In this document: positions 21,647-60,977 of the stretch, in pieces
Numbering within the stretch: position 1 is the first letter of the stretch
Layout: each line of letters opens with the position of its first letter
DNA from: Myxococcales bacterium
GTDB taxonomy: Bacteria; Myxococcota_A; UBA9160; UBA4427
Direction: 5' to 3'
Assembly: GCA_022563535.1 (NCBI GenBank)
Contig: JADFNE010000019.1
Location: 3,386 to 67,385, forward strand
DNA length: 64,000 bases
Made by a program: the position numbers and the translations under genes
Notes under the pieces: model-generated
The model's input: only the letters and a program-made list of their open reading frames with translations
Databases searched by the model: none
Told to the model about the DNA's origin: nothing

Positions 21647-22870
21647 TCAGAGCAACGCTGCCAATAGTGTGCTCCACCCAACCACCTGACGCCGAGTCTC
21701 GTCTTCGAAGACAAAGCCCTGCTCGAGCAATTTGCGCTCAATTTCCGGAAGGTGGAGCGCACCCCACGGCACGATGACGTTTTTGTACTGCGGCAATGCA
21801 ATTTGGATTTGGGCCAGCAGGTGACGATTGCGCAGTTCGAGGATGTCGCGCAGGAACACCTCCGCGAGCTCGGGATGCTCGAGAACGTGGCGGTAGAAAT
21901 CTATGAACGCCAACAGGGGTTCGTCGGTGTCCCAAATGCCGGCAGCCAGCGCGAGATACTCCACGGTCTCGGGAGCGAACACGCGAGCGTCGACGTCGGC
22001 ATTGCGAAGCACCGGCCACTCTCCTGCAGCTCCGGTCACGCCGTCTGGAAACAGGTAGAAGCCGATCGGCTGCTGGGTCTGTAGCCCCAGGTTTCGAGCC
22101 AGGCGTTCGTAGGTGAGCGCACCCTCGAGTACGGCGCCCTCATCCGACACGCCTTCTTCCAACACGATCGTATTTTCACTCACAAAACTCGCGGTGAGCG
22201 CCCGATAGGACTCGTCTTCCCCCACGTGCATCATGCCCACGAGGCGCACCTCGTTTTCTCCCTGGGCGTATCGACGATCGGCCAATTGAATTCCGGAGAG
22301 GTTGACCTGCACGAAACTCTCGGTTCCCACCTCCAGCCATGTCGCGAACGAAACCACGACATAGCCGACCAGGAGCGGAACCATGACGAACAGCATCGCG
22401 GCAAAAAAGCGCAGGCTATGGCCGAGCGCAATTTGCGGACCGCCCCGGGTCGAGTCGGTCAGCAGCCAATTCTCCCCCCGATTCAAGTGACGGATTCGAA
22501 GCAGCGTCGCGGCGGCGAGTCCCAGCTGAATGGCTCCGAGCGCGGCGGGCAGTTCCCACTCGAGATCGAGCGCCAAAGCTAGTGGCGCGCCCCCACTCGC
22601 CAACCACAAGACGCTTGCGCAGAGGGTCAGCAACATTCCCATCGGAAGTCGCGCGCAGATTGCCAGTATGGGCACGCACAAAATGGCCCCCAACAAGACC
22701 AGTACAGCGACGTATCGCTGCAACGCGATTAGCGGAGGGAGTTCAATGAACAAATCGCTCGCGAGGCTGACCAAGCTGAGCACGGCATCTGCGCCGTAGG
22801 CGACAATGAACGCATTTGCGAACCAAATGGGTGGTGAGGGCGAGGATGCAGTGGATTCGGAGAGAGCCAT
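21647..22870 (-). CDS. Polytopic membrane protein with a C-terminal TraB/GumN (Tiki-like) domain
   Basis: The first ~180 aa form about 6 hydrophobic helices. These are followed by VRLVGMMHVGEDESY and VIVPWGALHLPEIERKLLEQGFVF, which are the two GxxH motifs of the TraB/GumN/Tiki family. Confidence 0.6.
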   Translation of the reverse strand: MALSESTASSPSPPIWFANAFIVAYGADAVLSLVSLASDLFIELPPLIALQRYVAVLVLLGAILCVPILAICARLPMGMLLTLCASVLWLASGGAPLALALDLEWELPAALGAIQLGLAAATLLRIRHLNRGENWLLTDSTRGGPQIALGHSLRFFAAMLFVMVPLLVGYVVVSFATWLEVGTESFVQVNLSGIQLADRRYAQGENEVRLVGMMHVGEDESYRALTASFVSENTIVLEEGVSDEGAVLEGALTYERLARNLGLQTQQPIGFYLFPDGVTGAAGEWPVLRNADVDARVFAPETVEYLALAAGIWDTDEPLLAFIDFYRHVLEHPELAEVFLRDILELRNRHLLAQIQIALPQYKNVIVPWGALHLPEIERKLLEQGFVFEDETRRQVVGWSTLLAALL

Positions 22871-22975: not shown

Positions 22976-25900
22976 CTACATCCAGTCGTTGACCAGGGTG
23001 AAGGGTGCCCAGTAGAAGGGATGTGAATAGCGTTCGCTTTCGCGCAGGGTTGTCTGAGCCTTCTTCAGAGCTTCCGCCTTGTTGAGCTCGGGCTCCTGCA
23101 GGCCGCGGTAGAAGGCGATCATCAGTTCCCGTGCCGCGGTGTCCGAGATCGACCAGAGGCTCCCCAGTGCACTGCGTGCGCCGGCACGAATCGCACTCCC
23201 GGTGAAGCCAAGCCCCGCCCGATCGTTGCCCACTGCCGTCTCGCAGGCACTCAGGACCAACAGATCCAGCGGCGCGCCATCGGCCTGGGTCATGCCAACT
23301 ACGTCGGAGAGATCGTCGAATCCGACGCGTCCCCCGTAGGTGAGCAAGAAACTCGTATCGGGATTGCCGGTGAATACAGCGTGAGTCGCAAGGTGGACAA
23401 TGCCGGGTACTTCCTGCTCGACCGCTTCTCGGATCTTGGCCAGGGTGAAGGATTCGTTCAGCAGCAGCTCGCCGCCTTCAATGGCTTGAATCTGAGCCAA
23501 CTCCTCCGTGACCGCAGCCAACTCGCTAAAGCCCTGCACACTCTCGCTCACTCCGGCCAGCACTGGGCGTCCACGTTCCGAAGCGAATTCGGGAGGCGTC
23601 AGCAACCGCAAGCTAAGTGCCGTGGCCGTCGCAAAGCGATCCCCTACGTAATAACCGTCTTCGTCACTCAGGGCGGCGAAGGGCAGGGTGCGCAGGCGCC
23701 CGTCGGGTACGAACACGAGGGTTTCGATTCCCTCCTCGTCCATCCGCTCGGCGTACGGAGCGACCAGCCACTTGTAGAGCAACTTGCCAATTGCGCGGTG
23801 CTCGGTGGTCAGCGGATTCTGTACCGCTCGGCGGAATTGATCCACGGTCTTGATCAGGCGCGTTGCCGCGACTTTGGTCGTAAAGCGCTCGATCCCCCCC
23901 GGGAGACCCACCAGCAGTTCGATGCGATCGGGCAAGGTGACGGTGTAGACCACTGCAACCTCGTCGCCCAAATTGTCGATGCCGCGACCACTTCCGCCGA
24001 CACTCGCGATGCACTCATCTTCAAAGTAGTCGCGCAGTTCGGCGCCCTTGAGCTTTTCGAGGGTGTCCCGAGCTTCTGCAATCAAGAGATCGGCAGTGTG
24101 CTGGCTCTTGACCATGCTCGCGGTGCGCAGCAACAAGTCGACGGTGTCCTGGTAGACACCTCCCACGGTCATGCGGAACGAGGCGTCGGTCGTGCCGTAG
24201 CCCTCCGATGCCACGGGTTTGGTCTCTTCGAGAATCGCGACCGCCCGTCGGTGCGCCGCCAGCGCGGGCCCGACCTGATGCTCTGACCAGAGGATCTGCC
24301 CTTCCTGCCAATGTGCGCGGTACAGCAGCTCGGGGGCATTGATGCCTTCCGCAGCGCGGCGCGCCAGACGGGTCAAGTACAACGCTTCGCTGTGGTGCTG
24401 CTCTTCGCGATAGAGAGCGCCGAGATTCAAATTCGCCAGCGCCACACTGCGCAGATCCCCGAGTTCCTCGGCTCCCTTGAGCGCCGCATCATAGGCTCCG
24501 TAGGCGCTCAACAGCGATTCCGCTCGCGCCTTTGGCGACACCGCGGCCAGTTGAGCGAAGCTGCGGCCCATGTGAATGTTGAGCGGCACGCGCTCTCGGG
24601 TCTCGCGCAAGTCTTGGGTCAGGGACATGGCCTTGTCGAGCAGCCTGCGCGAATCCGCCAGGTGACCGCTGTCTGCGGCGGCTCGGGCGGCTCCGGCGAG
24701 GGCCCGGGCTTCGTCACCCTTGCGGCCAAGCTTGCGTGCGAGCTTGGCCGAGCGCTCGAAGGCCCAGAGTGCACTCGTAAAGTCGCGGGTAGCGGCATGG
24801 CGATTGCCGAGATTGTTCAAGACCGCTGGCGCAGGGGCATTGTTGTCCGAGGCGATCACGATGTTGAGGCCGCGGGTCAATTCCTCTTCGGCCCGGACCA
24901 GTTCCCCGGTGCCGATCAACGCATTGCCGAGACTCGTACGGATTGCAGCAGTGTGTTGTTCATCGCCGAGGGGTTCAGCCAGGGCGAGCGCGCGCTCGAG
25001 ACTGCGACGCGCGCCCATGAAACGACCGTCATTCTGCTGAAGCTGAGCGTACGCGAGGAGCGCTTCACTGGCGCCCCGGGCATCCATTGCCGCTTCGAGT
25101 TCATTCACGACCAATTCAAATCCGGCAGCGGCTTCTTCGAAGCGGCCACCTCGCACCGCCACGGCCGCCGTCGCCAATGCGCGCTGGGTTCGGATGTTGC
25201 GCTCGAGTTCTTCGACGTTCGCAACCGATGGCCCAATCGCTCCAACGGGAGGAAGATCGGGACTCTGGGCCGCGGCGAGCAGTTGATCGCCTGTGGTGTC
25301 GAAGGCGATCAACCAATCTTCAGGAGATGCCGGCAAGCGCCTGCTGGTGCTGGCCAGGAACTGGCTCTTGCGGTCCCTGCCGGCGATCGATTCGCAGGTG
25401 CGGGGAACGATCGGCGCGGCCTCGGCGCTATTGGTGAAGAGGGAGACGCCGGGGACCTTTGAAGTCTTCTTCTTTTGAGCGTGTGCCTGGCTGCTGGCGG
25501 ATGCGGCGGCGATCTGCTGCTCGGCTTCTTCAATGGCCGGATCTCCGGGGGGGCCGGAACCTACCGGGGGCAGGCTCGAAGCTGTGAGTTCGGTTTCGAA
25601 GGGCTCGAGATCGGTGAAGCCAACTGGGTCGTCGCTGTTGGTGAAGATTTGCTCGAGGGTGTTGACGATTTCTGTAATTGTATTGTCGGTGGAGTCGTCT
25701 TCAGGAGGGGGCTCCGTACCGAGTCGAACGACTTCGAACGTGCCATCCAATTCGGGTGAAATACCCGATACGTCAGTTTGTAGGGTGGTGAGATCTGAAA
25801 ACTGGGCCGAGGTGAGAGTGATGTCGCCTGCGTGGGCGCCATCCACTGCGCCGGTGGAGATAGAGGCGTCCGTAACGTCCAACTGCTGCTCGGCAAAGAT

Positions 25901-28891
25901 ATCGACACTTCCGGCAATCCCGGTCTCACCCAAGCTCCCAAAGTCGATCAAGGCTCCACTCAGATCTACGAAATCCCCAGAAACAGAGAGACCGCCGGGT
26001 TTCTCAGTCGAGCCCGAGCTGCCGAAAATCGTGATGTTGGGGAGGGCGATTTCGGGAGCTTCAATCACGACGCCAGCGGTGGTTGGACCGTCAGCCGAGA
26101 TCGTAACGCTGTCGCCCGAGATCGAGATGCCTGCTTTGATCGACACAGACCCCGCCGTACCAGAGAATGAACCCGTATCGATAATAATGATGGAATTGGT
26201 TTGACCGAGACTGATCGTATCCGTCGCCTGGATATTTACGGCACCGCCAGTATCGGCAAAGAACGAGGCGGTAGAGATGTCAATGTCAAGCAGAACATCG
26301 GTCCCGAGGATCTCAACGTCGCCCACCCGAGTGGGTCCCTCGGCTGCGGCAGCTACGAAAAACTGTTCTTCGGGAAAATCGGGAATCGTGAGAATTTCCC
26401 CCGTGAAGATAGAGCCACCGCTCAAGTGGACGGTGCCGCCTCGAAACGAGACGTCACCACTGCTGTCAGACGGTCTACTGGTGGCAAGATTTCCGTTGAA
26501 CGTCAAGTTGCCAGACGCGTTGATCTGATTCCCAGACAGATCGGTTGTTACCAATGACAGCCCTGAAGTTTCAGGCCCCTGCGGGTCGAGATCGCTGGCG
26601 TCTATGACGCGACCGGGACCTCCCAACGCGATTGCGTGAAAGCCGCGGCCCTGGGTACTGATGTCGAGTGGCGCATCGAAACCGAAAGTCAGCTCGCTGG
26701 CAACGAAGACGAACACGCCGCCGAGAAAATCAGAATCGATGGGGGCCACATCGAAGCCATCGACCACGATCGACGAAAGATTGCCGTTGCGAATTTGCAC
26801 GGCTCCCACACTGACGTCCGTCAACAGGGGTGCCTCGATCGGCGCCGTCATGTCCATCAACGTAACGGAGCTGTCGAAATCGCTGAACAGTTCCAGCCGA
26901 TCCGCGGTGCTGACAATGAAGCCCTGCTTTGTGTCAATCGCGAAGTCCGGCCCGAAGAAAACTCCGTTTGAGTTTAGGAAGAACAGATCCGCGGAATCGT
27001 AGGCGCTTACAATGCTCCCATCGATTTGAGACGGCCTCGAACCTGTGATTCGCGTAATCACGCTGTCGACTTCAACGAGACTCGTCGCATTGTCGGTATA
27101 GAGTGCAGTCTCTCCAACATTCAGATCGAACTCGGAAAAGCTGTGCAACACCAGAGAGTCGTCATCTCTTTTGATGCCGTCGTCGCCGTGAATCGTGTAA
27201 GTGTTTTCAGCGTCGAGCACAAGCAGACCGGGAGTCTGGCCGGGAGTGGAATCGCGGATAATATTGCTGCCATCGAGAGTAGTTTCGACGTACGAGCCAG
27301 CGGTCCCGGATTCCGACGATACGTCGTAGATAGGGTCGGCCTCGCCATCGAAAGTCAAATCCCGGGTAACGAATTGAACCGTACCGCCATCGCTGTTATC
27401 GCCAAGCGCGGCCACTGAGCCCGTTGCGTCACTTGCGATGATCTGCTCGCTTCCGTACACGTAAATCGAACCACTAGCTTGATCGCTTCCGGACGTCGTG
27501 AGGTCGACATTAGACCCGCTAATGTCCACAACGCGCCCCTCGATCGAGACAGCCACGGGTGTACCGCTGGCGGACTTTCCATCGATCTTCGAGCCCCTGA
27601 AACTGATCGCATCCCCAGCCACCTGGATCGTGTTGGGTTCTGTGCCAGACAGCGCCGAACCGGTAAGGATCGTAATGCCGTCGGCCATGACAGATTTGGC
27701 GCCGAAGAATCCTATCGAACCCGATTGGTCGCCCGTTCTCGAACCGATGGTATTAAATGTCTGCCCACTCCCGATCGTGAGCGTGTCCTCCGCAACGACA
27801 AGGATGTCGCCCGCGCTGGCACCAAGGCTAACGGTCACAATGCTCGAATCGAGCAGGATGTCATTACCCAAAATCCGCACGTCGCCCGCGTCGTCGAAAA
27901 CCAAACCCCCGGTCGTGATGAATCCCTGGGTCGTGACAGTGCCGCCCTGAAGCAGGATGTCACCATTGCCACGGCCTCCATCCGACTGGGGATCGGTAAT
28001 CGTGCTCAGGCTGCCGGAATAGAAAACGTCTCCTTCTGTAGCGATTGCTACCCCGAGCAAAGAAGTCGTTCTTACCGAATCAATCGAGGCTGAGTTGGGG
28101 CCAGCTGCACCGGCAAAGCCCTCGACCCTACCATCGCGACCCAAACCCACGGCGATAAAACTCCGGCCATTGGTGTCGATGCTGAATCCCTCAACTGTCA
28201 ACGGATCTCCGAAGCTCACATCGCCGGCGACAAAGCTCAGTTCGGCGGCCTCTGTTCCCAGGAAACTGTCCGTTACATTGAAACCATCAACGACGATATC
28301 TCCCAGACCCGTCGGCCCGGCACCCAGAAAACCCCAGGCGTGTGGAACGGCCATGGTCAGATCCGGTACAAGCAATGGCGCTCCGGTATCGATTGTGGTT
28401 ATTGAACCGTCGAGGGTGCTGCGCATCTCGAGAAAGTCAGCCGTGCTGACGTGGAAGCCCTGCTTTACGTCGAGGGAGAAACCCGAACCGAAGAAGACGC
28501 CGTTGGGATTGACGAAGAGTAGATCGGCGTTGGGATAATCACTCTCGATCGTGCCGTCGAGTTGCGAAGAGTTGCTACCGGTAATTCGAGTGAGCACGGT
28601 CAGTGCGGCCTCGAGGCCAGCTTCGTTACTGTCCATGTAGCGAGCGGTCTCAGTGGATTTCAAACCCATCTCGCTCAGGCTGTGTACGATCAGGCTCCCG
28701 TCTGTGCTGCGGATGCCGTCTTCACCGTCGATCAAGAACACGCCTTCGATGGACTCGATGTTCCCCGCCTCTTGTCCTTCGGTGTCGTCCCGGACGATCT
28801 GAGCAGACGCGCTGGATGCAGCAAACAATCCCAACACGATGAATGACAGTACGGCTCGCCCGAGCGAGCCCGATCCATATTTGTTTAACAT
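22976..28891 (-). CDS. TpsA-type exoprotein: signal peptide, two TPS/beta-helix modules, linker, TPR repeats and a C-terminal CHAT (caspase-fold) domain
   Basis: 1971 aa. TPS motifs occur twice: LTRITGSNSSQLDGT...LLFVNPNGVFFG (aa ~95-135) and ITRITGSRPSQIDGS...LFFLNSNGVFFG (aa ~610-647). G/D/S/T-rich beta-helix repeats follow each. TPR-like helices span aa ~1230-1560. The CHAT His (IVHLATHAVF) and Cys (LLVLSACETAVG) are present. Confidence 0.9.
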   Translation of the reverse strand: MLNKYGSGSLGRAVLSFIVLGLFAASSASAQIVRDDTEGQEAGNIESIEGVFLIDGEDGIRSTDGSLIVHSLSEMGLKSTETARYMDSNEAGLEAALTVLTRITGSNSSQLDGTIESDYPNADLLFVNPNGVFFGSGFSLDVKQGFHVSTADFLEMRSTLDGSITTIDTGAPLLVPDLTMAVPHAWGFLGAGPTGLGDIVVDGFNVTDSFLGTEAAELSFVAGDVSFGDPLTVEGFSIDTNGRSFIAVGLGRDGRVEGFAGAAGPNSASIDSVRTTSLLGVAIATEGDVFYSGSLSTITDPQSDGGRGNGDILLQGGTVTTQGFITTGGLVFDDAGDVRILGNDILLDSSIVTVSLGASAGDILVVAEDTLTIGSGQTFNTIGSRTGDQSGSIGFFGAKSVMADGITILTGSALSGTEPNTIQVAGDAISFRGSKIDGKSASGTPVAVSIEGRVVDISGSNVDLTTSGSDQASGSIYVYGSEQIIASDATGSVAALGDNSDGGTVQFVTRDLTFDGEADPIYDVSSESGTAGSYVETTLDGSNIIRDSTPGQTPGLLVLDAENTYTIHGDDGIKRDDDSLVLHSFSEFDLNVGETALYTDNATSLVEVDSVITRITGSRPSQIDGSIVSAYDSADLFFLNSNGVFFGPDFAIDTKQGFIVSTADRLELFSDFDSSVTLMDMTAPIEAPLLTDVSVGAVQIRNGNLSSIVVDGFDVAPIDSDFLGGVFVFVASELTFGFDAPLDISTQGRGFHAIALGGPGRVIDASDLDPQGPETSGLSLVTTDLSGNQINASGNLTFNGNLATSRPSDSSGDVSFRGGTVHLSGGSIFTGEILTIPDFPEEQFFVAAAAEGPTRVGDVEILGTDVLLDIDISTASFFADTGGAVNIQATDTISLGQTNSIIIIDTGSFSGTAGSVSIKAGISISGDSVTISADGPTTAGVVIEAPEIALPNITIFGSSGSTEKPGGLSVSGDFVDLSGALIDFGSLGETGIAGSVDIFAEQQLDVTDASISTGAVDGAHAGDITLTSAQFSDLTTLQTDVSGISPELDGTFEVVRLGTEPPPEDDSTDNTITEIVNTLEQIFTNSDDPVGFTDLEPFETELTASSLPPVGSGPPGDPAIEEAEQQIAAASASSQAHAQKKKTSKVPGVSLFTNSAEAAPIVPRTCESIAGRDRKSQFLASTSRRLPASPEDWLIAFDTTGDQLLAAAQSPDLPPVGAIGPSVANVEELERNIRTQRALATAAVAVRGGRFEEAAAGFELVVNELEAAMDARGASEALLAYAQLQQNDGRFMGARRSLERALALAEPLGDEQHTAAIRTSLGNALIGTGELVRAEEELTRGLNIVIASDNNAPAPAVLNNLGNRHAATRDFTSALWAFERSAKLARKLGRKGDEARALAGAARAAADSGHLADSRRLLDKAMSLTQDLRETRERVPLNIHMGRSFAQLAAVSPKARAESLLSAYGAYDAALKGAEELGDLRSVALANLNLGALYREEQHHSEALYLTRLARRAAEGINAPELLYRAHWQEGQILWSEHQVGPALAAHRRAVAILEETKPVASEGYGTTDASFRMTVGGVYQDTVDLLLRTASMVKSQHTADLLIAEARDTLEKLKGAELRDYFEDECIASVGGSGRGIDNLGDEVAVVYTVTLPDRIELLVGLPGGIERFTTKVAATRLIKTVDQFRRAVQNPLTTEHRAIGKLLYKWLVAPYAERMDEEGIETLVFVPDGRLRTLPFAALSDEDGYYVGDRFATATALSLRLLTPPEFASERGRPVLAGVSESVQGFSELAAVTEELAQIQAIEGGELLLNESFTLAKIREAVEQEVPGIVHLATHAVFTGNPDTSFLLTYGGRVGFDDLSDVVGMTQADGAPLDLLVLSACETAVGNDRAGLGFTGSAIRAGARSALGSLWSISDTAARELMIAFYRGLQEPELNKAEALKKAQTTLRESERYSHPFYWAPFTLVNDWM

Positions 28892-28946
28892 TTCACCACT
28901 CCAGGTTCTCTTGTATCACCGGCGCACTTCAAAAAGCAAGTGCAAC

Positions 28947-30695
28947 TCATGGGAAGCGGACCTGCATCGAGAAGTGAAGGCCGTCGTCCTGCAACGCCTT
29001 TTTGTCTCCAGTCACGCCGCCAGTCTTTTCTACTTTCCCCGCCCACTCGATAGCGATTCGTACATGGCGCCAGATGTCGGCGTGGATACCGACTCCCAGG
29101 CTCACCAACCTGGCTCCCGATCCGCTCCCTGCGAAATCACGCCCATAGCCCGCATCGCAGAAGAGTCCAAGCTCCAGCCGTTCTACTGGCTCGACATGGG
29201 GCAGGGGGATTCGTAATTCCACCGAACCCACGACGCCCTGGTCCCGAACCAGGAGGTTCTCCCGGAGGCCTCGCACCGAGTTGTGTCCCCCGAGCGCAAA
29301 CTGCTCCAGTCCCAGGAGGTGCGCGTCGGCCACCTGTGCGTCAATGCGCGACTGAATTCGCAAGTCGTACCAGGGCAAGTACTCGACAGCCTGGATCTGG
29401 ATGAGGCCGCTTACAAATTTTCCGTCGGGAAATTTTTCAAGCGTCATCATGTTCTGCTGCAGCGGGGTGGCATCGAGTATGTCAAGTCCGACGCTCGCCG
29501 TAATCCTTGCTGCGAACGCCCGCCGTCTCAGGCGCAAGAGGTAGTCTCCCCCGGCGCGCAACACCGCGACCGTCGATTCCCCCTCGTTTGGATCGTCTGG
29601 GTCGATCCCCGCCGCTCCGGCCAAGAACCCACGGCCGCGTTTCCAGTCCCCCGCAAAGAACACTCGAGCCTCTTGACCGCGTTCGCGCAACACCGGCTGC
29701 CTGATGCGAAATCCATAGGCCTCGGTCTTGCTTTCGATGTCGAGGGCCTTGAGGGAATCTTCGATGATTTCACTCCACGCACGGCGCATCCAAATCTCGA
29801 GCGAAGTGTCCCAGCGATTCAGCGGCACTTCGACTCGCACATCCACATCGTGCAGTCCCTCGGCGACGGAGTACGCGGTCGACCAGGTATCCCCCCAACC
29901 CGACACGTTGCGGTGACCCGCGCGAAAGCGTCCGCGATACTCGCCAATCGACACTGGAGCGTAATTATTGAAACTGGCGCTGGCCCAATACGGAACCGCT
30001 TCATCGACCGCGATCGACAGCATGCTCTCGCCGCGTTCTTCGCCGGGAATGAGTTCGGCGGCCACCGCAGTGATCCGCGGATCCCGCTTCAAGCGGCGCA
30101 GGCTTTCGCGCAAGGTGTTTACGTTCAGCGTGCCCCCGTTAGCTTCGAGCCGCGAGGTAAAGTATCGGGGCCGTAGACGACCGTCAGTTGTGACATCGAT
30201 CGAAGTGAGCTGACCTTCAATGATCGTGATCTCCACCACCCCGTCGCGATAATCCTGCGCCGGAAGCACTGCACCCGAGCTGATGTAGCCAGCGTCGACG
30301 TACGCCCGGGTGACGCGATCGCGCGCCTCCAGGACCGTCGAGTAACGACGCTCTTCACCGAGATAGGCTTGGGTGACAACTTCGAGATCCGCGTCGGACA
30401 GCGCGAGATTGCCTGAAAAATGAAACGCCTTGATCGAGATGACTCCGCCGGAGAGCGCGCTGGCCGCGCTGTCGTCTTCCGGAATATGAATCTGGGGCAG
30501 GGTGCGACCGGGGATCGGCGCATCCTCTGCGTCCAGATCGAGCGGGGGAAGTTCAGGGCGAGTTTCCCCTGGTCCCCTGAGCAGGGGCGCGACTTGCTGC
30601 GCAAACGCAGACTCAGCTGCGAGACTCAAAAGCAAAAAAACCGCCGCTGCACCGACAACCGCCACGGTCGCAATACGAAGGCGAAGGATTGGCAT
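28947..30695 (-). CDS. ShlB/FhaC/HecB-family two-partner-secretion outer-membrane transporter (TpsB)
   Basis: The start is ATG 30695, followed by a signal peptide (MPILRLRIATVAVVGAAAVFLLLSLAAESAFA). A POTRA segment is present (IKAFHFSGNLALSDADLEVVTQAYLGEERRYSTVLEARDRVTRAYVDAGYISSGAVLPAQD...VEITIIEG). The C-terminus ends in an aromatic beta-barrel motif (FSMQVRFP). Confidence 0.9.
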   Translation of the reverse strand: MPILRLRIATVAVVGAAAVFLLLSLAAESAFAQQVAPLLRGPGETRPELPPLDLDAEDAPIPGRTLPQIHIPEDDSAASALSGGVISIKAFHFSGNLALSDADLEVVTQAYLGEERRYSTVLEARDRVTRAYVDAGYISSGAVLPAQDYRDGVVEITIIEGQLTSIDVTTDGRLRPRYFTSRLEANGGTLNVNTLRESLRRLKRDPRITAVAAELIPGEERGESMLSIAVDEAVPYWASASFNNYAPVSIGEYRGRFRAGHRNVSGWGDTWSTAYSVAEGLHDVDVRVEVPLNRWDTSLEIWMRRAWSEIIEDSLKALDIESKTEAYGFRIRQPVLRERGQEARVFFAGDWKRGRGFLAGAAGIDPDDPNEGESTVAVLRAGGDYLLRLRRRAFAARITASVGLDILDATPLQQNMMTLEKFPDGKFVSGLIQIQAVEYLPWYDLRIQSRIDAQVADAHLLGLEQFALGGHNSVRGLRENLLVRDQGVVGSVELRIPLPHVEPVERLELGLFCDAGYGRDFAGSGSGARLVSLGVGIHADIWRHVRIAIEWAGKVEKTGGVTGDKKALQDDGLHFSMQVRFP

Positions 30696-35595: not shown

Positions 35596-37290
35596 TCAGT
35601 CCAGTTCCTCTGTCACCATCACGCAATCACGTCCGCCGTCCTTCGCCCGGTAGAGTGCCTGGTCGGCACCCGAGAAGAAGGCCTTCGCATCACCTCGATA
35701 GACATTTACGCCGACCGACACCGTCAACCTCATGTGTTCACTCGGCAGATCGAGGACGATCGAGCTTGCGGCTACCGATGCGCGAATCTTTTCTGCCAAC
35801 TTCATGGCACCATCCATGTCCGTCTTCGGCAGGATCAGTGCAAATTCTTCGCCGCCATAGCGCGCCAGGACGTCTGTCTCGCGCACGATCTCGTTCATCA
35901 CGTTGGCGATCTTGCGCAGGACTTCGTCACCACCGGCATGGCCTATTTTGTCGTTCCATTTCTTGAAGTGGTCGATGTCGATCAAGATCAACGCAAGTGG
36001 GTCGCCAACGCGATCAGATCGTTTGATCTCCTTGGCGAGTTGTTCCTGGAAAAAACGGTGATTGTGCAAACTCGTGAGGCCATCGGTGATCGAGAGCTGT
36101 TCGAGGACTTCGTTCACCCGCTGCAGTTCGGCGTATTGTTCCCGCATCTGCTGAACGGCCTGCTCGGTCTCCGCCTGACTTCGCTCGAGCGCTTCGGCCT
36201 TGCTGGCGAGGCGGGCGGTCATTTCGTTGAATGTCCGCGTCAGCACGCCCACCTCGTCCTGAGCCCGAGTCTCGGGAAGTTCCACATTATCTTCGTCATC
36301 CGAGATCCGTCGGGCTGCTTCCGACAGGGCCTCGATCGGGCGAGCAATCGACACCGCAACCCGGTAGGCCGCAACTCCAAAAAGCAAAACAACGGCGAGA
36401 TTGATGCTCAGAACCCTGCGAAAGGCAGCGAGCAACGGAGCAAAGGCTTCGTCGTAGTTTTCTTCCACAACGAGGGTGAGACCGTATTCGGAAATCGGGG
36501 TTGCGTACCCGACGACGCGAACCCCCGCGTCATTGGTGTAGTCGACGACAGTTTCCAATCTACGCAGCGAGGGCAGCACGCGTTTGAGAATATTCGTCCT
36601 TTCATGGGACCGCCCTGCAGCGACGAAGATTTGCGCCGCGTTCACCAGGTAGATCTCACCCGTGTCTCCCAGGCGCTGCGTGCGAAGAGGTTCTGCTACC
36701 GCTTCGAGCGGCATCACTGCGTTCAGCAAGCCGATCATCTCGCCAGCGCGATCGTCGATGCGCGCCGAAACGATTTGCACGAACTGTCCCTCGACCAGGC
36801 TCAGCACGGGCATGGGCTTCTCCACCGACTTCAGAAGTTTGTCGGTCGTTTCTCGAGTCAGCGCATACTCACTTCCGACCCAGACCAGTGTCTCGCCATC
36901 GGGCTGGAGAATGAAGAGCGAATCGAAGTGCGGGAAGCGATCGCGAACGTATTGGAGGTACTCCGTAACGTCGTGCGATGCAGTGGACCCTGTTTTTCCA
37001 TTAGCACCGGGCATCAGCCGCCGGACGTTGTTCTCGAGTACATCGCTCGCGGCCAACACTCCGAGATTGAGAGTCTGATGGCCATACCACTCGTCGACGA
37101 GCCGACTGGCCTCCTGGGCGATCTCGGGAAACTTCAGCTCGAGCTTTCCGCGCAAGAACGTATCAATCGAACGAACCGAAATTCCCGTCACGATCAACGA
37201 GGTCAACAGGGTCGCGCCGAAGACAAATAGGCTGATGCGCGCAGGTAGGCTGCGAAACGGATTCACGCGTTGGGGGATACGCAGTTGCAA
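35596..37290 (-). CDS. Membrane sensor diguanylate cyclase (periplasmic Cache-like domain, HAMP, GGDEF)
   Basis: An N-terminal TM helix is followed by a ~270-aa periplasmic domain, a second TM helix and a HAMP domain. The GGDEF domain has RYGGEEFALILP and an RxxD I-site (RETD) five residues upstream. Confidence 0.9.
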   Translation of the reverse strand: MQLRIPQRVNPFRSLPARISLFVFGATLLTSLIVTGISVRSIDTFLRGKLELKFPEIAQEASRLVDEWYGHQTLNLGVLAASDVLENNVRRLMPGANGKTGSTASHDVTEYLQYVRDRFPHFDSLFILQPDGETLVWVGSEYALTRETTDKLLKSVEKPMPVLSLVEGQFVQIVSARIDDRAGEMIGLLNAVMPLEAVAEPLRTQRLGDTGEIYLVNAAQIFVAAGRSHERTNILKRVLPSLRRLETVVDYTNDAGVRVVGYATPISEYGLTLVVEENYDEAFAPLLAAFRRVLSINLAVVLLFGVAAYRVAVSIARPIEALSEAARRISDDEDNVELPETRAQDEVGVLTRTFNEMTARLASKAEALERSQAETEQAVQQMREQYAELQRVNEVLEQLSITDGLTSLHNHRFFQEQLAKEIKRSDRVGDPLALILIDIDHFKKWNDKIGHAGGDEVLRKIANVMNEIVRETDVLARYGGEEFALILPKTDMDGAMKLAEKIRASVAASSIVLDLPSEHMRLTVSVGVNVYRGDAKAFFSGADQALYRAKDGGRDCVMVTEELD

Positions 37291-53625: not shown

Positions 53626-55464
53626 ATGGAAAATGAGAAGGGTCGCATTCAGCTCCTTTCCAATGCCGTGATCGACCAGATCGCTGCCGGGGAAGTTGTC
53701 GAGCGTCCCGCGTCGGTGGTCAAGGAGCTGGTCGAGAACGCACTGGACGCCGGCGCAACGCGAATTCGGGTGGATGTACGGGATGGGGGCCGCGGTCTGG
53801 TCGCAGTCACCGATGACGGATACGGCATGTCCCCAGGGGAAGCCCGGATGGCGCTGGCCCGTCACGCCACCAGCAAGCTCACGAGTATTTCCGATCTCGA
53901 AAATGTCACCAGCTTTGGATTCCGGGGCGAGGCCATGCCCGCAATCGCTTCGGTTTCGAAGATGAGGTTGTTTACCCGGCCACACGATCACGACGAGGGA
54001 TACGCGATCAATCTCGAGGGCGGTGAAATTCTCTCCGAAGGGCAGGCGGGTGGACCGGCCGGGACCCGGGTCGAAGTCGCCGAACTGTTTGCCAAGATTC
54101 CCGCGCGCCGCAAGTTTCTCAAGAGCGAAGGCACCGAGTGGGGACACATCGCCGATTGGATGCGGAGGTTGGCCCTGGTTCTGCCCGGGGTACATTTTGA
54201 ACTGCGACGAGATGATCGTGCGGCCATCGTCTGGCCAGCGACCTCGAATCCCCTGGATCGTATTGCCGCCGTGCTCGGAGAAGCCGAAGCCGCGGCGCTG
54301 GTCGAAGTCGAGTGCGAAGAGGGGACGGGGCATCTACACGCTTTCATCTCCACGCCCGAGAACACCCGGGCCAACGCGAACGCCATCTACCTGTTCGTCA
54401 ACGGACGCCCGGTTCGCGACAAAGTCATGCGCCACGCACTGCTCCAAGCCCATCGCGACATCTTGCCCAAGGGCCGCTTTCCGTCGGCGATTCTCTTTTT
54501 GACCCTGCGCGGATCCGGTCTGGACGTCAACGTGCACCCGGCGAAGTGGGAAGTCCGCTTTGCAGAGCCCCAGGCTGTTCACCAACTGATTCGCCGCGCG
54601 GTGCGCGACGCAATGGTGCAGCGAGGTTGGTTGGGAGACGGGGTCGCAACGCAAACCACTGAGGCGCTGACTCCGGGACTGAATCGAGGGACGCGCAAGC
54701 TCGCAGCCGGAGCCTCCTGGGTTCGAGATCGCAGCGGGAGCGACTGGGCCCTCGCGGGCCCCAGCGCTGACAGCGCGCCTGGTTCGGTCGCGCTCCCGGG
54801 GCTCGACGTCCCATCGAGTGAACCGGAAACGTCCGCGATTCAGTTCGGCAGCTTGCGCCTGCTGGGTCAACTGCTGGCCAGCTACTTGCTGGTGGAGGGC
54901 AAGGAGGGTTTGCTGCTCGTCGACCAACACGCTGCCCACGAACGCGTTCTCTATGAGCGCCTGCGCGCGGAGTGGCTCGACCGGGGAGTCGAACGCCAGG
55001 GCTTGTTGCTCGCGGTCAACGTCGAACTCGACCCGCTGGATGCTGCGGCCCTCGGCGAACACAGCGAAATCGTCGAACGTCTGGGCTTCGAGATCGAACC
55101 CTTTGGCGAAGGGGCAATGGTTGTGCGATCGACCCCATCGCTACTCGGCGACCGGGATCCGGCAAAGCTCCTGCGCGACCTGGCGGCAGAACTGCAGGAC
55201 ATCCCCTCCGTTCAGGACGACCCTGCAGACCGGACAACGACGTCTCCCGCCGACACCCGCCTGCTCGGAGCCGCGGATCGCGTGTTCGCCAGCCTCGCCT
55301 GCCACAGTGCCAGAAGGGCGGGAGATCATCTCGAACCCGACGAGCAACAGCAGATCTTGAACGATCTGGACACGATCCCCTGGGCTCCCACTTGCCCCCA
55401 CGGACGCCCGGTTGCCGTCGCCTATTCGCTGCCCGAAATCGAGCGAAGATTCGCCCGTCGTTAG
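53626..55464 (+). CDS. mutL: DNA mismatch repair protein MutL
   Basis: ATG 53626 follows GGAG. IQLLSNAVIDQIAAGEVVERPASVVKELVENALDAGA is the GHKL N-terminus, and a C-terminal dimerisation domain is present. Confidence 0.95.
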   Translation: MENEKGRIQLLSNAVIDQIAAGEVVERPASVVKELVENALDAGATRIRVDVRDGGRGLVAVTDDGYGMSPGEARMALARHATSKLTSISDLENVTSFGFRGEAMPAIASVSKMRLFTRPHDHDEGYAINLEGGEILSEGQAGGPAGTRVEVAELFAKIPARRKFLKSEGTEWGHIADWMRRLALVLPGVHFELRRDDRAAIVWPATSNPLDRIAAVLGEAEAAALVEVECEEGTGHLHAFISTPENTRANANAIYLFVNGRPVRDKVMRHALLQAHRDILPKGRFPSAILFLTLRGSGLDVNVHPAKWEVRFAEPQAVHQLIRRAVRDAMVQRGWLGDGVATQTTEALTPGLNRGTRKLAAGASWVRDRSGSDWALAGPSADSAPGSVALPGLDVPSSEPETSAIQFGSLRLLGQLLASYLLVEGKEGLLLVDQHAAHERVLYERLRAEWLDRGVERQGLLLAVNVELDPLDAAALGEHSEIVERLGFEIEPFGEGAMVVRSTPSLLGDRDPAKLLRDLAAELQDIPSVQDDPADRTTTSPADTRLLGAADRVFASLACHSARRAGDHLEPDEQQQILNDLDTIPWAPTCPHGRPVAVAYSLPEIERRFARR

Positions 55465-55525
55465 CGGTTTCGAGACGTGGTCTACGCGAGTCCTGCAGCG
55501 ATTCTTGATGTAGGCTCGCGCCGCC

Positions 55526-56491
55526 ATGTCCAGCGCCTCGCAAAATGAAACGCAGAAGAAGCCTCCCGTCATCGTTCTCACCGGTCCCACCGCGGCCGGC
55601 AAGAGTTCCCTCGCCCTCGATCTGGCCCAGCGATGCAACGCCGAAATCATCAACGCCGACTCGATGCAAGTGTTCCGCTTCATGGACATCGGGACCGCAA
55701 AACCGAGCCTCGAGGAACGCGCCAGCGTTGCCCATCACCTGTTTGATGTGGCCAACCCCGACGATGCCTACAGCGCCGGTCGCTACGCCATTGAAGCCCG
55801 CGCCGCCGCCGCGAAGATCCACGCGGCCGGCAAACTCGTGATCCTGGTGGGCGGGACCGGCCTCTACATTCGAGCTTTTCTCGAAGGTTTGATTGCAACG
55901 GGCGGTGCGGACAGCGAGTTTCGCGAGCAACTCGAAACGGAACACGCGCGCGCCGTCGAGCAGGGCGAACCCCTGAAGCTCTATCGCCGCCTCGAAGAAC
56001 AGGATCCGAAGGCCGCCGCCGCCATCCATCCCAACGATCTGCGCCGGATCATCCGCGCCCTCGAAATTGTTCGGCACTGCGGCCGTGAAGCATCGACGGT
56101 GCGCGAGGAACACAATTTCCGCGAGGCACCGTTCGCGACCCTGCATCTGGCGCTGGACCCAGGTCGCGAGATCATCAACCAGCGGATCGAGCTGCGCTGC
56201 GAAGCCATGATCAAAAACGGCCTGCTCCAGGAGGTTCGGCGCCTGCGCGGGATGGGCTACGGCGCTGGGCTACGGCCCATGCAGGCAATTGGCTATCGAC
56301 ACATCAATCCCGTGGTGGACGGCAGCGACACCCTGAGCAACGCCCTGACTGCCATGCAAACCGACACGCGCCGCTTCGCCAGGCGCCAGCGCACCTGGCT
56401 GCGCAAGGTCGTCGATGCCCGCTGGTTCGATCCCCAGGACGGGGATTCGATCGACCGGGCGGTCGAGGACTTTTTGGCTCAACAGAACTGA
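55526..56491 (+). CDS. miaA: tRNA dimethylallyltransferase
   Basis: The P-loop LTGPTAAGKSSLALDLA is present, with INADSMQVFRFMDIGTAKP and the conserved C-terminal RRFARRQRTW. Confidence 0.95.
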   Translation: MSSASQNETQKKPPVIVLTGPTAAGKSSLALDLAQRCNAEIINADSMQVFRFMDIGTAKPSLEERASVAHHLFDVANPDDAYSAGRYAIEARAAAAKIHAAGKLVILVGGTGLYIRAFLEGLIATGGADSEFREQLETEHARAVEQGEPLKLYRRLEEQDPKAAAAIHPNDLRRIIRALEIVRHCGREASTVREEHNFREAPFATLHLALDPGREIINQRIELRCEAMIKNGLLQEVRRLRGMGYGAGLRPMQAIGYRHINPVVDGSDTLSNALTAMQTDTRRFARRQRTWLRKVVDARWFDPQDGDSIDRAVEDFLAQQN

Positions 56492-56529
56492 GAGGAGGGC
56501 GCTGGGGCTACAGTCCCCGCGCGGCAAAC

Positions 56530-56994
56530 TCAGTAGGCAGCGGCGGTGTAGTCGATGCCAAACTTCACGTCGATACAGCAGGGTGTATCCATTTCGAACA
56601 ACGCCGCCGCGCCGTATACCGGCGAGAACAGCGGATCGAGATCGGCTTCAAAGGGAAGCAACAACACACCCGGAATCAATTCGAGGCCACCGGTGACGAA
56701 ACGAATGAACGATGCACCGACGTTCACGCCAGCGTTCCAAATATATCCGGGCATGAAAAACGCGACCCGAACCGCGACGGGATCGTCCTGCTCACGCATT
56801 CCCTCGATCACCGAGATCAGAGCGACCATCGGGGTAAGCACAAGATCGAGAGGGGCTTGGGTGATATTGCTGACGGAACGCTTTAGGGTTTCGGTCGATG
56901 CCAGGGCGGGAACACCCGAAGTGAGCAGCACGCCCAGCAAGACCAGCGAGGCCATGGGGCGGAACCAAAACCTTTTCAGAGACCGAAACCTCAC
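56530..56994 (-). CDS. Hypothetical secreted or membrane protein
   Basis: 154 aa with a signal peptide (LVLLGVLLTSGVPALAS). I cannot confirm any motif. Confidence 0.55.
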   Translation of the reverse strand: MRFRSLKRFWFRPMASLVLLGVLLTSGVPALASTETLKRSVSNITQAPLDLVLTPMVALISVIEGMREQDDPVAVRVAFFMPGYIWNAGVNVGASFIRFVTGGLELIPGVLLLPFEADLDPLFSPVYGAAALFEMDTPCCIDVKFGIDYTAAAY

Positions 56995-57258
56995 GGCTGC
57001 GCTCCATTTGCTCTCGAGCTGCGGATCTTATTTTCGTTCTGCGGTTGCATCCAATTCCACCCGTAGTCAGCCGCCCGTAAACAACGTAATTACACCGGGG
57101 TCCCCCGCACCCGCAGCCGCCAAACTAGAGGCAAGCCCAGCGGGTTGTCAAGCGACCTCACCGGGGTCCTGCAGCGCCCGGAAGCGTCAGTCCTGGTCCC
57201 CGCTTCTGTTGGCAGCGAGGGGGCAGGGCGGAGCTTCCCGCTATTGTCAGGAACGCCC

Positions 57259-58734: not shown

Positions 58735-58856
58735 CGCCGAAGCCGAGAGGCAGCCGGCTGCGCCCAGATTGTCGCGCTTTGAATGGAGTCGGATAGAATC
58801 CCCGGCCCACAGCGATAGCCAACGAGACCAACCGAGACCCAGGGAGACCGCCGATC

Positions 58857-60945: not shown

Positions 60946-60977
60946 TCGAGGCGGCCGGAGGGTTTTTCAACGGGCTG

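What the first reader, a model, noticed from the sequence alone, without database searches (positions are those of the whole stretch)
22976..30695. Two-partner-secretion operon whose passenger is a 1971-aa TPR-CHAT (caspase-fold) protein
A TpsB transporter gene (POTRA plus ShlB-type barrel) lies 55 bp upstream of a giant ORF on the same strand. That ORF begins with a signal peptide and a TPS secretion domain (HSLSEMGL...LTRITGSNSSQLDGT...LLFVNPNGVFFG). It continues with beta-helix repeats, an acidic/Pro-rich linker containing a C-x11-S-x-F...RRLPxSPED motif, and about 330 aa of TPR-like repeats. It ends in a CHAT domain with the catalytic-type His (IVHLATHAVF, nt ~23381-23383) and Cys (LLVLSACETAVG, nt ~23246-23248) intact. 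TPR+CHAT is the architecture of the CRISPR-associated Craspase protease (Csx29). Here it is instead attached to an FhaB/CdiA-like delivery scaffold. That predicts a caspase-like protease displayed on the surface, released, or delivered into neighbouring cells. I know of no experimentally characterised TPS-exported CHAT protease, so this is the best candidate for an undescribed system in the window.
Basis: partly seen in the sequence, partly recalled or inferred. Interest (0 to 1): 0.85.

Follow-up and report, generated by a model that had tools for sequence, protein, structure and literature searches.

The report
Secretion filament fused to caspase-like protease
A myxobacterial two-partner secretion gene pair encodes a surface-filament protein fused to a caspase-like TPR-CHAT protease that most bacteria make as a separate periplasmic protein beside the same genes, so the protease more likely processes or anchors the filament's tail than acts as a delivered toxin.

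Summary
tpsB (28947-30695, -) lies 55 bp upstream of a 1971-aa ORF (22976-28891, -) with a signal peptide, TPS, TPR and CHAT domains and an invariant His1837/Cys1883 pair.

- The N-terminal ~1040 aa is a tandem duplication of a TPS + presumed beta-helix module.
- In most genomes the TPR-CHAT part is a separate ~780-900-aa protein with its own signal-peptide-like N-terminus. It is encoded beside tpsB and one to three tpsA genes, and often beside DUF928 and CHASE2-sensor genes.
There it opens a two-cysteine tail like the HMW1/HxuA periplasmic anchor.

The window gene is therefore a fusion of normally separate partners. Fusions arose at least twice and keep the CTE at the junction. The TPR-CHAT end is the best-conserved part and the TPS modules the most variable, which is the reverse of CdiA toxins.

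Best reading (about 0.45): TPR-CHAT stays in the periplasm as anchor and maturation/release protease acting on the TpsA tail.

No paper found links CHAT with two-partner secretion. This is an uncharacterised variant of a known secretion type. Interest 0.6.

The parts
28947..30695 (-). tpsB: Omp85-family TpsB transporter, 582 aa from the ATG at 30695. N-terminal signal peptide MPILRLRIATVAVVGAAAVFLLLSLAAESAFA.
   Evidence: Pfam POTRA_2 E=2.6e-17, ShlB E=1.4e-24, Omp85 E=7.2e-07. It is 64% identical to the TpsB upstream of the closest full-length homologue, in L001.
30213..30434 (-). ShlB-type POTRA domain of TpsB (aa 88-161)
   Evidence: Pfam PF08479
29082..30032 (-). ShlB/FhaC-type beta-barrel of TpsB (aa 222-538)
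   Evidence: Pfam PF03865
28892..28946 (-). 55-bp tpsB-tpsA intergenic gap with a GGAG Shine-Dalgarno-like sequence about 9 nt before the ATG. No terminator-like site.
22976..28891 (-). Fused tpsA-TPR-CHAT gene, 1971 aa
   Evidence: A 99%-identical, contig-truncated copy (P0027) sits in Myxococcales MAG GCA_022561235.1.
28802..28891 (-). Sec-type signal peptide (aa 1 to about 30, ...AASSASA|QIV)
   Evidence: Read directly from the sequence. Inferred; no predictor was run.
27257..28792 (-). Module 1: TPS domain (about aa 51-202) plus a Gly/Ser/Thr/Asp-rich repeat region, presumed beta-helix (aa 34-545)
   Evidence: Pfam TPS has two stretches. Locus-derived TPS HMM hits at aa 51-202 and 562-711.
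25772..27256 (-). Module 2: internal second TPS domain (about aa 562-711) plus repeat region (aa 546-1040). Tandem duplicate of module 1.
   Evidence: BLASTP of module 1 against module 2: 37% identity, E=7e-60. Module number is 1-3 in close homologues.
25412..25771 (-). Acidic/Pro-rich linker (aa 1041-1160). Its C-terminal end was modelled as disordered.
   Evidence: Sequence. pLDDT<50 for aa 1140-1223. Only 24-54% identity among close homologues.
25304..25411 (-). Degenerate TpsA C-terminal element (CTE) at the fusion junction: PRTC(1166)ESIAGRDRKSQFLASTSRRLPASPEDWL (aa 1161-1196)
   Evidence: hhalign of the window-clade junction profile against the stand-alone-TpsA CTE alignment: probability 80.8%, E=1.3e-05, 35 columns in register. 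The direct HMM score is weak at 2.1 bits. The segment is 50-81% identical among close homologues, compared with 24-54% for the linker before it.
23990..25219 (-). TPR/helical-repeat superhelix and scaffold (about aa 1225-1634). Includes the conserved non-catalytic Cys1627.
   Evidence: AlphaFold model with mean pLDDT 85.7 and pTM 0.81. Pfam TPR_12. Cys at position 438 of the first A2 sequence is conserved in at least 90% of sequences.
22991..23794 (-). CHAT caspase-fold domain (Pfam aa 1700-1967)
   Evidence: Pfam CHAT E=2.2e-58. Foldseek top hits are Csx29, separase and DdvA.
23381..23383 (-). Codon of the catalytic-type His1837 (HLATH|AVF)
   Evidence: invariant in 29 sequences; aligned to the CHGQ His of Csx29
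23243..23245 (-). Codon of the catalytic-type Cys1883 (LSAC|ET)
   Evidence: invariant in 29 sequences; aligned to the GACET Cys of Csx29

Best explanation
Shown here:
- The locus is a tpsB-tpsA two-partner secretion operon from a Myxococcales bacterium.
- Its TpsA is a gene fusion. Two tandem TPS + repeat modules are joined through a disordered acidic linker and a degenerate copy of a conserved TpsA C-terminal element (CTE) to a TPR-CHAT caspase-fold module.
- Across Nitrospirota, Verrucomicrobiota, Myxococcota, Pseudomonadota, Desulfobacterota and Cyanobacteriota the TPR-CHAT module is normally a separate protein with a signal-peptide-like N-terminus. It is encoded beside tpsB and one to three CTE-bearing tpsA genes, and often beside DUF928 and CHASE2-sensor genes.

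Inferred mechanism:
1. The whole protein crosses the inner membrane by Sec.
2. The N-terminal TPS domain engages the TpsB POTRA domains, and the variable TPS/repeat modules are threaded out and fold on the cell surface.
3. The C-terminal TPR-CHAT part folds in the periplasm, where its stand-alone homologues are expected to reside. There it acts as a stopper that holds the filament in the TpsB pore, taking the place of the disulfide-looped tail of the unfused TpsAs.
4. Its His1837/Cys1883 site cuts at or near the CTE junction, in cis or between neighbouring molecules, to mature or release the surface filament.

On this reading the protease is a dedicated periplasmic processing and anchoring partner of TpsA, not an exported toxin.
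For: Architecture:
- domains and duplication; model and Csx29/separase/DdvA fold matches.
- His/Cys: invariant in 29 CHAT domains, conserved in at least 90% of 45 sequences, aligned to the Csx29 motifs.

Separate partners elsewhere:
- Of 83 TPR-CHAT ORFs in 81 loci, only 4 are fused to TPS.
- Of the 37 with at least 6 kb on both flanks, 29 have a TPS gene within 6 kb or fused, 18 have tpsB and 17 have both.
- 63 of 66 stand-alone TPR-CHAT ORFs have a signal-peptide-like hydrophobic N-terminus directly followed by TPRs.

CTE:
- An HMM built only from stand-alone TpsAs finds it in 66 ORFs, including 50 of 51 complete stand-alone TpsAs. It lies roughly 10-110 aa from the C-terminus, mostly 40-110.
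- 40 of 51 have exactly two Cys in the mature protein, and 43 of 51 have one in the CTE and one in the last 15 aa. The loop has a median of 92.5 aa.
- This is the HMW1/HxuA-type C-C periplasmic anchor signature described in the TPS review PMC5422565.

Fusions keep the CTE at the junction:
- L077 E=2e-08; L005 E=0.005-0.017; P0008 E=2.1e-12, P0009 E=9.2e-10, P0010 E=6.9e-09.
- Window clade by profile-profile comparison: probability 81%, E=1.3e-05.
- Fusions arose at least twice.

Conservation: TPS modules 31-49% identical, TPR 58-82%, CHAT 66-85%.

Precedents:
- DdvA has a periplasmic TPR-CHAT with proposed linker autoproteolysis (PMC11506125).
- The review's reference list cites work on the intracellular FhaB prodomain and on SphB1 as a maturation protease.

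Predictive check: two of four CTE-bearing TPS-only proteins picked independently have an adjacent ~790-aa CHAT gene and a tpsB. The one CTE-negative control has none.
Against: - There is no direct evidence of proteolysis, of a cleavage site, or of where the module sits.
- The window's CTE is degenerate. It scores 2.1 bits against the CTE HMM, and the canonical GRGG is replaced by SRR.
- AlphaFold leaves the junction disordered and does not dock it onto the TPR groove or the active site.
- The periplasmic location of stand-alone TPR-CHAT rests on a hydrophobicity heuristic, not on a signal-peptide predictor or an experiment.
- CTE-bearing TpsAs are not always next to a CHAT gene. P0025 is an orphan and P0022 is unresolved.
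- The 80 loci were ranked with a query that also contains TPS, which may inflate the TPS association.
- TpsA C-terminal domains are exported in many TPS systems, so export of an unfolded TPR-CHAT cannot be excluded.
Confidence: 0.45

Rival explanations
1. The TPR-CHAT is the cargo. It is threaded through TpsB after the filament and then displayed on the surface, released, or delivered into neighbouring cells as a caspase-like effector, in the manner of CdiA.
For: - It occupies the C-terminal position, as toxin or functional domains do in many TpsAs.
- The TPS pair is intact and the catalytic dyad is intact.
- A long disordered linker precedes it.
Against: - Homologous TPR-CHAT proteins are mostly separate, have their own signal-peptide-like N-terminus and have no TPS domain.
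- The C-terminus is the most conserved region and the N-terminus the most variable.
- No VENN-like motif.
- No conserved immunity-like gene downstream. The 407-aa neighbour is absent from L083, L084 and L085.
- No PADLOC or toxin-family hit.
Confidence: 0.2
2. Signalling module. The TPR-CHAT is a signal-activated extracytoplasmic protease, like separase, Craspase or the model proposed for DdvA. Its cleavage of the TpsA tail, and in unfused systems perhaps of DUF928 proteins, reports a surface event to the cell. In most lineages this would act through the neighbouring CHASE2 sensor (cyclase or kinase output). The window's version would be a stripped-down form without the sensor.
For: - DUF928 occurs in 46 of 81 loci and a CHASE2-containing sensor cluster in 46 of 81.
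- TPR-CHAT proteases characterised so far are tightly regulated (PMC11506125).
- The surface modules are variable in sequence and number.
Against: - No DUF928 gene was found anywhere in the window, and no CHASE2 homologue was found in the window or in the held flanks of the closest fused relatives.
- There is no evidence of any output pathway here.
- The argument rests on gene neighbourhood alone.
Confidence: 0.15
3. The TPR-CHAT acts mainly as a non-catalytic periplasmic plug or chaperone for TpsA. The TPR groove holds the tail. The His/Cys site serves some unrelated substrate or is vestigial.
For: - The fusion replaces the two-Cys loop tail with a bulky folded domain.
- DdvA shows that a periplasmic TPR-CHAT can act as a steric block.
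Against: His and Cys are invariant in 29 of 29 CHAT domains and conserved in at least 90% of 45 sequences across several phyla. That argues for retained catalysis.
Confidence: 0.1
4. The long ORF is an assembly or frameshift artefact that joins separate tpsA and TPR-CHAT genes.
For: Separate genes are the rule in other genomes.
Against: - The same fused architecture appears in independent metagenomes and MAGs: P0001-P0007, L001, L083 and L084/L085.
- A 99%-identical copy exists in GCA_022561235.1.
- There is no signal peptide at the junction, and the junction sequence is conserved.
Confidence: 0.02

Closest known systems
HMW1/HMW1B and HxuA/HxuB two-partner secretion systems (periplasmic C-terminal anchor)
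   Same: A TpsB transporter is paired with a TpsA carrying an N-terminal TPS domain. In the unfused relatives the TpsA tail has two Cys bracketing a loop near the C-terminus. That resembles the disulfide-bonded anchor that locks HMW1 or HxuA in its TpsB pore (PMC5422565).
   Different: The loop is longer (median 92.5 aa). It starts with a distinct conserved element (consensus ...C-x8-12-SSFxVTGRGGLPxSP...). A caspase-fold protease is genetically coupled to it. In the window the loop tail is replaced by the fused TPR-CHAT. No sequence homology to HMW1 or HxuA tails was tested.
FhaB/FhaC of Bordetella with the SphB1 maturation protease
   Same: A TpsA whose C-terminal part stays inside the cell and is removed by dedicated proteolysis. 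The FhaB prodomain and SphB1 papers appear in the reference list of PMC5422565. The rest is from my own knowledge.
   Different: The protease here is a caspase-fold TPR-CHAT, not a subtilisin autotransporter or CtpA/DegP. It is encoded in the same cluster, or fused in cis. No FhaB-type repeat families were detected by Pfam.
Csx29 (TPR-CHAT) of type III-E CRISPR Craspase
   Same: Best full-length structural match: Foldseek E about 1e-13 and TM 0.37-0.54. Same TPR-then-CHAT order. The His and Cys align to the Csx29 CHGQ and GACET motifs.
   Different: About 11-14% sequence identity. Csx29 is cytoplasmic, bound to gRAMP/Cas7-11 and activated by RNA. The window protein is Sec/TPS-exported, and no cas genes are among the neighbours examined.
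DdvA anti-sigma factor of Myxococcus xanthus (periplasmic TPR-CHAT)
   Same: Periplasmic TPR-CHAT in a myxobacterium. Structural match 8rw5/8rot, E about 1e-9. Proposed self-cleavage of a flexible linker preceding the TPR-CHAT (PMC11506125).
   Different: DdvA is a dimeric single-pass membrane protein with a cytoplasmic zinc-binding anti-sigma domain. It has no TPS domain and no TpsB partner. Its CHAT lacks a three-helix motif.
CdiA/CdiB contact-dependent inhibition
   Same: A tpsB-tpsA pair with a large TpsA carrying a distinct C-terminal domain.
   Different: No VENN motif, no hypervariable C-terminus (conservation is the reverse), no adjacent immunity gene, and no FHA-1/FHA-2 repeat hits.

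Membership tests
Two-partner secretion (type Vb) system | TpsB: Omp85-family outer-membrane protein with periplasmic POTRA domain(s) and a ShlB/FhaC-type barrel | tested here: met
   Pfam POTRA_2 E=2.6e-17 and ShlB E=1.4e-24, both above the gathering scores
Two-partner secretion (type Vb) system | TpsA: N-terminal signal peptide followed by a TPS domain with the conserved NPNG-type motif | tested here: met
   Pfam TPS E=4.7e-36; TIGR01901 E=1.3e-26. FVNPNGVFFG is present. The signal peptide was read from the sequence only.
Two-partner secretion (type Vb) system | tpsB and tpsA adjacent and co-oriented | tested here: met
   55-bp gap on the same strand. tpsB lies directly upstream in L001, L083, L084 and L085.
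Two-partner secretion (type Vb) system | TpsB-dependent translocation of TpsA across the outer membrane | not testable with these tools
   Needs secretion assays
CHAT domain / clan CD caspase-hemoglobinase-fold peptidases | Significant match to the CHAT profile | tested here: met
   PF12770 E=2.2e-58, 198 bits against a cut-off of 24
CHAT domain / clan CD caspase-hemoglobinase-fold peptidases | His-Cys catalytic dyad at the canonical positions | tested here: met
   His1837 and Cys1883 are invariant in 29 CHAT domains. They align with the His of CHGQ and the Cys of GACET in Csx29 chain 7zoq_A, in a marginal hit at E=0.052. That these Csx29 residues are the catalytic dyad is from my own knowledge. 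The 3-D geometry of the pair in the model could not be measured.
CHAT domain / clan CD caspase-hemoglobinase-fold peptidases | Caspase-like alpha/beta fold preceded by a TPR superhelix | tested here: met
   AlphaFold pLDDT 85.7. Foldseek top hits are Csx29, separase and DdvA.
CHAT domain / clan CD caspase-hemoglobinase-fold peptidases | Peptidase activity | not testable with these tools
   Needs biochemistry
Craspase (type III-E CRISPR Csx29) | Encoded with gRAMP/Cas7-11, Csx30/31 and RpoE; cytoplasmic | tested here: not met
   The neighbours examined are metabolic genes, not cas genes. The protein carries a signal peptide and TPS domains. PADLOC gives no Craspase model hit.
CdiA-type polymorphic toxin | Conserved N-terminal region, pre-toxin (VENN-like) motif, hypervariable C-terminal toxin, adjacent immunity gene | tested here: not met
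   No VENN-like motif. The C-terminus is 58-85% identical among close homologues and the N-terminal modules 31-49%. The downstream gene is not conserved across close homologues.
HMW1/HxuA-type anchored TpsA | C-terminal disulfide-bonded loop retained in the periplasm | tested here: inconclusive
   Unfused relatives show the two-Cys tail signature in 43 of 51. The window protein keeps only the first Cys (C1166) and has TPR-CHAT in place of the loop. Disulfide formation and topology are untestable here.
DdvA-like anti-sigma factors | N-terminal cytoplasmic zinc-binding anti-sigma domain plus one transmembrane helix before the TPR-CHAT | tested here: not met
   The N-terminus is a signal peptide followed by TPS modules

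The most novel reading that the evidence does not exclude
The tpsA(CTE)-tpsB-TPR-CHAT cluster, often with DUF928 and a CHASE2 sensor, is a widespread undescribed envelope system. In it an extracytoplasmic caspase-like protease controls the anchoring and release of a variable surface filament by cutting a conserved C-terminal tail element. In most lineages this event is coupled to second-messenger or kinase signalling through the CHASE2 sensor. The window's fused gene is the Rosetta-stone form that shows the protease and the filament tail act on each other directly.
Probability: 0.22. Interest if true: 0.85.

Novelty: new variant of a known kind. Interest (0 to 1): 0.6.

Why it matters
Two-partner secretion is a well-studied pathway, yet the main review does not mention CHAT or caspase-like partners, and none of my ten literature searches found a paper linking the two. 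The comparison made here gives three leads.

- **A functional context for TPR-CHAT proteins.** A large class of extracytoplasmic TPR-CHAT proteins gets a context.
- **A candidate substrate or recognition element.** The TpsA C-terminal element is not covered by any Pfam model.
- **A simple first experiment.** The window's single polypeptide contains filament, tail element and protease together. Cleavage in wild type compared with H1837A/C1883A, and the topology of each end, can be read directly.

It also links DUF928 and CHASE2, two long-standing unknowns, to a secretion and protease module.

Tried and rejected
1. **Docking the junction by AlphaFold.** A construct of aa 1140-1971 left the junction at pLDDT<50 with no contact. 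Inconclusive.
2. **Direct HMM match of the window junction to the CTE.** Only 2.1 bits. Homology rests on the profile-profile comparison and on intermediate fused forms.
3. **PDB sequence searches.** The TPR-CHAT profile gave only TPR proteins. The single CHAT sequence gave nothing. The CHAT profile gave Csx29 only marginally, E=0.052. The fold search was needed.
4. **The 407-aa downstream ORF (21647-22870, -) as a third component or immunity gene.** It is conserved in L001 (46% identity) and in the same-species contig L082, but absent from L083, L084 and L085. It has only a weak TraB_PrgY_gumN hit, E=0.02. Rejected as a core part.
5. **DUF928 and CHASE2 in the window.** Absent. The one 'CHASE2-cluster' hit is the GGDEF/HAMP/dCache protein at 35596-37290, matched through parts other than CHASE2.
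6. **Known anti-phage defence models (PADLOC).** Only weak TPR hits.
7. **Promoter and terminator scans.** No more sites than in shuffled sequence.
8. **Arg at P1 of the CTE as a cleavage site.** The canonical GRGGLP and the window's SRRLP do not place Arg in the same register, so this stays speculative.
9. Alignment A1 began one codon late, so its positions are one too low. Corrected by direct translation.
10. **Literature.** Ten full-text searches found no paper connecting CHAT with TPS, filamentous hemagglutinin or ShlB.

Full report
**1. What is in the window**

Two co-oriented ORFs on the minus strand are separated by 55 bp. One is a 582-aa protein (28947-30695 from the ATG). The other is a 1971-aa protein (22976-28891). 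A GGAG lies about 9 nt before the second ATG, and there is no terminator-like site in the gap.

- Pfam identifies the first protein as a TpsB: POTRA_2 E=2.6e-17 and ShlB E=1.4e-24.
- The second protein has TPS (E=4.7e-36, two stretches), TPR_12 and CHAT (E=2.2e-58, aa 1700-1967). NCBIfam TIGR01901 agrees.
- A 99%-identical copy, truncated by a contig end, sits in Myxococcales MAG GCA_022561235.1 with identical downstream synteny. The source is therefore a Myxococcales bacterium.

**2.

The N-terminal ~1040 residues are not one TPS domain followed by repeats. They are a tandem duplication of a ~500-aa TPS + repeat module: aa 34-530 against 546-1040, 37% identity, E=7e-60. Close homologues carry one, two or three such modules. 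The 'beta-helix' nature of the repeats is inferred only.

**3. The C-terminal module**

- An AlphaFold model of aa 1190-1971 built on a 45-sequence alignment is confident (mean pLDDT 85.7, pTM 0.81). It shows a helical-repeat superhelix followed by an alpha/beta domain.
- Foldseek against the PDB puts Csx29 TPR-CHAT chains of Craspase first (E=6e-14 to 2e-11). Human separase follows (about 2e-11), then the periplasmic TPR-CHAT of the Myxococcus anti-sigma factor DdvA (6e-10).
- His1837 and Cys1883 are invariant in 29 diverse CHAT domains and conserved in at least 90% of a 45-sequence alignment.
- A profile of these domains aligns the two residues to the CHGQ His and the GACET Cys of Csx29, in a marginal hit at E=0.052.
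- Membership of the CHAT family is therefore well supported. Membership of Craspase is not: the protein has a signal peptide, there are no cas neighbours, and there is no PADLOC hit.

**4. The comparative result that changes the interpretation**

A scan of one genome per species found at least 584 stretches encoding relatives. I kept the best 80 loci and searched their ORFs with pieces of the window proteins and with iterated HMMs.

- Of 83 TPR-CHAT ORFs, only four are fused to a TPS domain. The rest are ORFs of about 780-900 aa.
- Among the 37 with at least 6 kb on both sides, 29 have a TPS-domain gene within 6 kb or fused, 18 have a tpsB and 17 have both.
- Typical orders are tpsA-tpsB-TPRCHAT (L009, L076), or one to three tandem tpsA genes followed by TPR-CHAT (L046, L067, L070).
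- The stand-alone TPR-CHAT proteins start with a signal-peptide-like hydrophobic segment immediately followed by TPRs, in 63 of 66. They have no TPS domain.
- By established knowledge of type Vb secretion, TpsB transports TPS-bearing substrates. These proteases are therefore expected to work in the periplasm.
- Clustering of neighbouring ORFs revealed two more recurrent families: DUF928 (46 of 81 loci) and a CHASE2-sensor cluster (46 of 81). Neither is found near the window gene or its closest fused relatives.

Caveat: the loci were ranked with a query that includes TPS, which may inflate the TPS association.

**5. The junction motif**

The C-termini of the stand-alone TpsAs share an element with this consensus...LLAQRC-AARLGGQG-SSF-VVTGRGGLP-PSP-GGAL....

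- An HMM made only from stand-alone TpsAs finds it in 66 ORFs, including 50 of 51 complete stand-alone TpsAs. It lies roughly 10-110 residues from the C-terminus, mostly 40-110. No Pfam model covers it.
- 40 of the 51 have exactly two cysteines in the whole mature protein.
- 43 of 51 have one Cys in the element and one within the last 15 residues. The loop between them has a median of 92.5 aa.
- This is the signature of the small disulfide-bonded periplasmic domain that locks HMW1 and HxuA in their TpsB pores (review PMC5422565).
  - Its direct HMM score is weak at 2.1 bits.
  - A profile of the ten window-clade junctions aligns to the element in register: hhalign probability 81%, E=1.3e-05.
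- Other fusions carry a clearly recognisable element at the same place: L077 E=2e-08, L005 E=0.005-0.017, P0008 E=2.1e-12, P0009 E=9.2e-10, P0010 E=6.9e-09.
- A crude tree of the TPR-CHAT region puts the window clade with L007 and L005, next to unfused myxococcal systems. The cyanobacterial fusion L077 lies elsewhere. Fusion therefore happened at least twice.

**6. Test of the CdiA-like reading**

- Among close homologues the TPS modules are 31-49% identical, the linker 24-54%, the junction element 50-81%, TPR 58-82% and CHAT 66-85%.
- The variable end is the surface end and the conserved end is the protease, the reverse of polymorphic toxins.
- There is no VENN-like motif and no conserved immunity-like gene downstream. 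The 407-aa neighbour is present in L001 and L082 but not in L083, L084 or L085.

**7. Most likely mechanism**

The steps below are inferred, not shown.

1. The fused protein is exported by Sec.
2. The first TPS domain engages TpsB, and the variable modules are threaded out and fold outside the cell.
3. The TPR-CHAT end folds in the periplasm and holds the filament in the pore. It takes over the role of the two-Cys loop, of which only Cys1166 remains.
4. The His/Cys site cuts at or near the flexible junction, to mature or release the filament.

Precedents:
- HMW1/HxuA anchoring.
- The intracellular FhaB prodomain and the SphB1 maturation protease. The papers are cited in PMC5422565; the details are from my own knowledge.
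- DdvA, where a periplasmic TPR-CHAT is proposed to cut the flexible linker that precedes it (PMC11506125).

I give this about 0.45. The descriptive part (a TPS pair, and a fusion of normally separate partners that retains the tail element) I hold at about 0.9.

**8. Weak points**

- AlphaFold leaves aa 1140-1223 disordered and does not dock it.
- Signal peptides were judged by a heuristic.
- In an independent check of four CTE-bearing TPS-only proteins, two had an adjacent ~790-aa CHAT gene plus tpsB (P0026, P0023). One had tpsB but a broken contig (P0022). One was an orphan (P0025). The CTE-negative control P0019 had none.
- Local linkage is therefore frequent but not universal.

**9. Novelty**

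- Public records call these proteins 'CHAT domain-containing protein' or 'filamentous hemagglutinin family protein', so the domain combination is visible in databases.
- Ten full-text searches found nothing connecting CHAT with two-partner secretion. The main TPS review does not mention CHAT or caspase. One paper merely notes a CHASE2-DUF928 neighbourhood in Nostoc.
- I rate the window feature as a new, uncharacterised variant of a known secretion type. Its main value is as a Rosetta-stone fusion pointing to a widespread tpsA(CTE)-tpsB-TPR-CHAT (plus or minus DUF928 and CHASE2) module.
- Interest 0.6.

Noticed in passing
window 21647-22870 (-): A 407-aa ORF directly downstream of the fused gene. 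It has predicted N-terminal membrane helices and motifs reminiscent of TraB/PrgY/GumN (MMHVGEDESY ... WGALHLPEIE). The Pfam TraB_PrgY_gumN hit is weak, E=0.02. A 46%-identical homologue lies two genes downstream of the fused gene in L001, but there is none in L083, L084 or L085.
   Followed up: partly
L002-L081 (for example L010 12215-13033, L015 17386-18153, L002 5661-7376): DUF928 secreted proteins (46 of 81 loci) and a CHASE2-sensor cluster (46 of 81 loci; the example checked carries a cyclase domain) recur beside the TPR-CHAT, tpsB and tpsA genes. Some DUF928 proteins carry a PPxRGAPxxRxGGGTR motif that loosely recalls the GRGGLP of the TpsA tail element. Any relation between the two was not tested.
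   Followed up: partly
window aa 1627 (about nt 24011-24013) and stand-alone homologues: A non-catalytic Cys in the motif ELRDYFxDxC(V/I)A is conserved in at least 90% of TPR-CHAT homologues. 47 of 74 stand-alone TPR-CHAT proteins contain exactly two Cys. If those two are this Cys and the catalytic one, a regulatory disulfide in the oxidising periplasm would be conceivable. The distance in the model could not be measured.
   Followed up: no
P0020 (1552 aa); L002 1482-5657: Other fusion forms exist. P0020 combines TPS, POTRA_2 and ShlB in one protein, with the tail element (E=1.1e-09) at aa 907-943, about 610 residues before its C-terminus. In L002 the TpsB and TPR-CHAT matches share one stop-to-stop reading frame.
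   Followed up: no
P0011, P0012 (Aulosira and relatives): Cyanobacterial proteins combine glycosyltransferase family 2 domains, a TPS domain and a CHAT domain. They have no TPR annotation and no detectable tail element, so this is a different TPS-CHAT architecture.
   Followed up: no
L084 12045-16026; L085 8686-12754: In one close fused homologue, the genes downstream are a protein with a weak PEP-CTERM (PEP_exosort_dom) hit and an 853-aa multi-TPR protein.
   Followed up: no
window 54000-64000: G+C rises to 0.62-0.66, with strong AT-skew swings (+0.23, then -0.12), compared with about 0.59-0.60 over most of the window. Not examined. No tRNA genes occur anywhere in the window.
   Followed up: no
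window 35596-37290 (-): A dCache_1-HAMP-GGDEF diguanylate cyclase lies about 5 kb from tpsB. It is not a CHASE2 protein, and no link to the TPS pair was found.
   Followed up: partly
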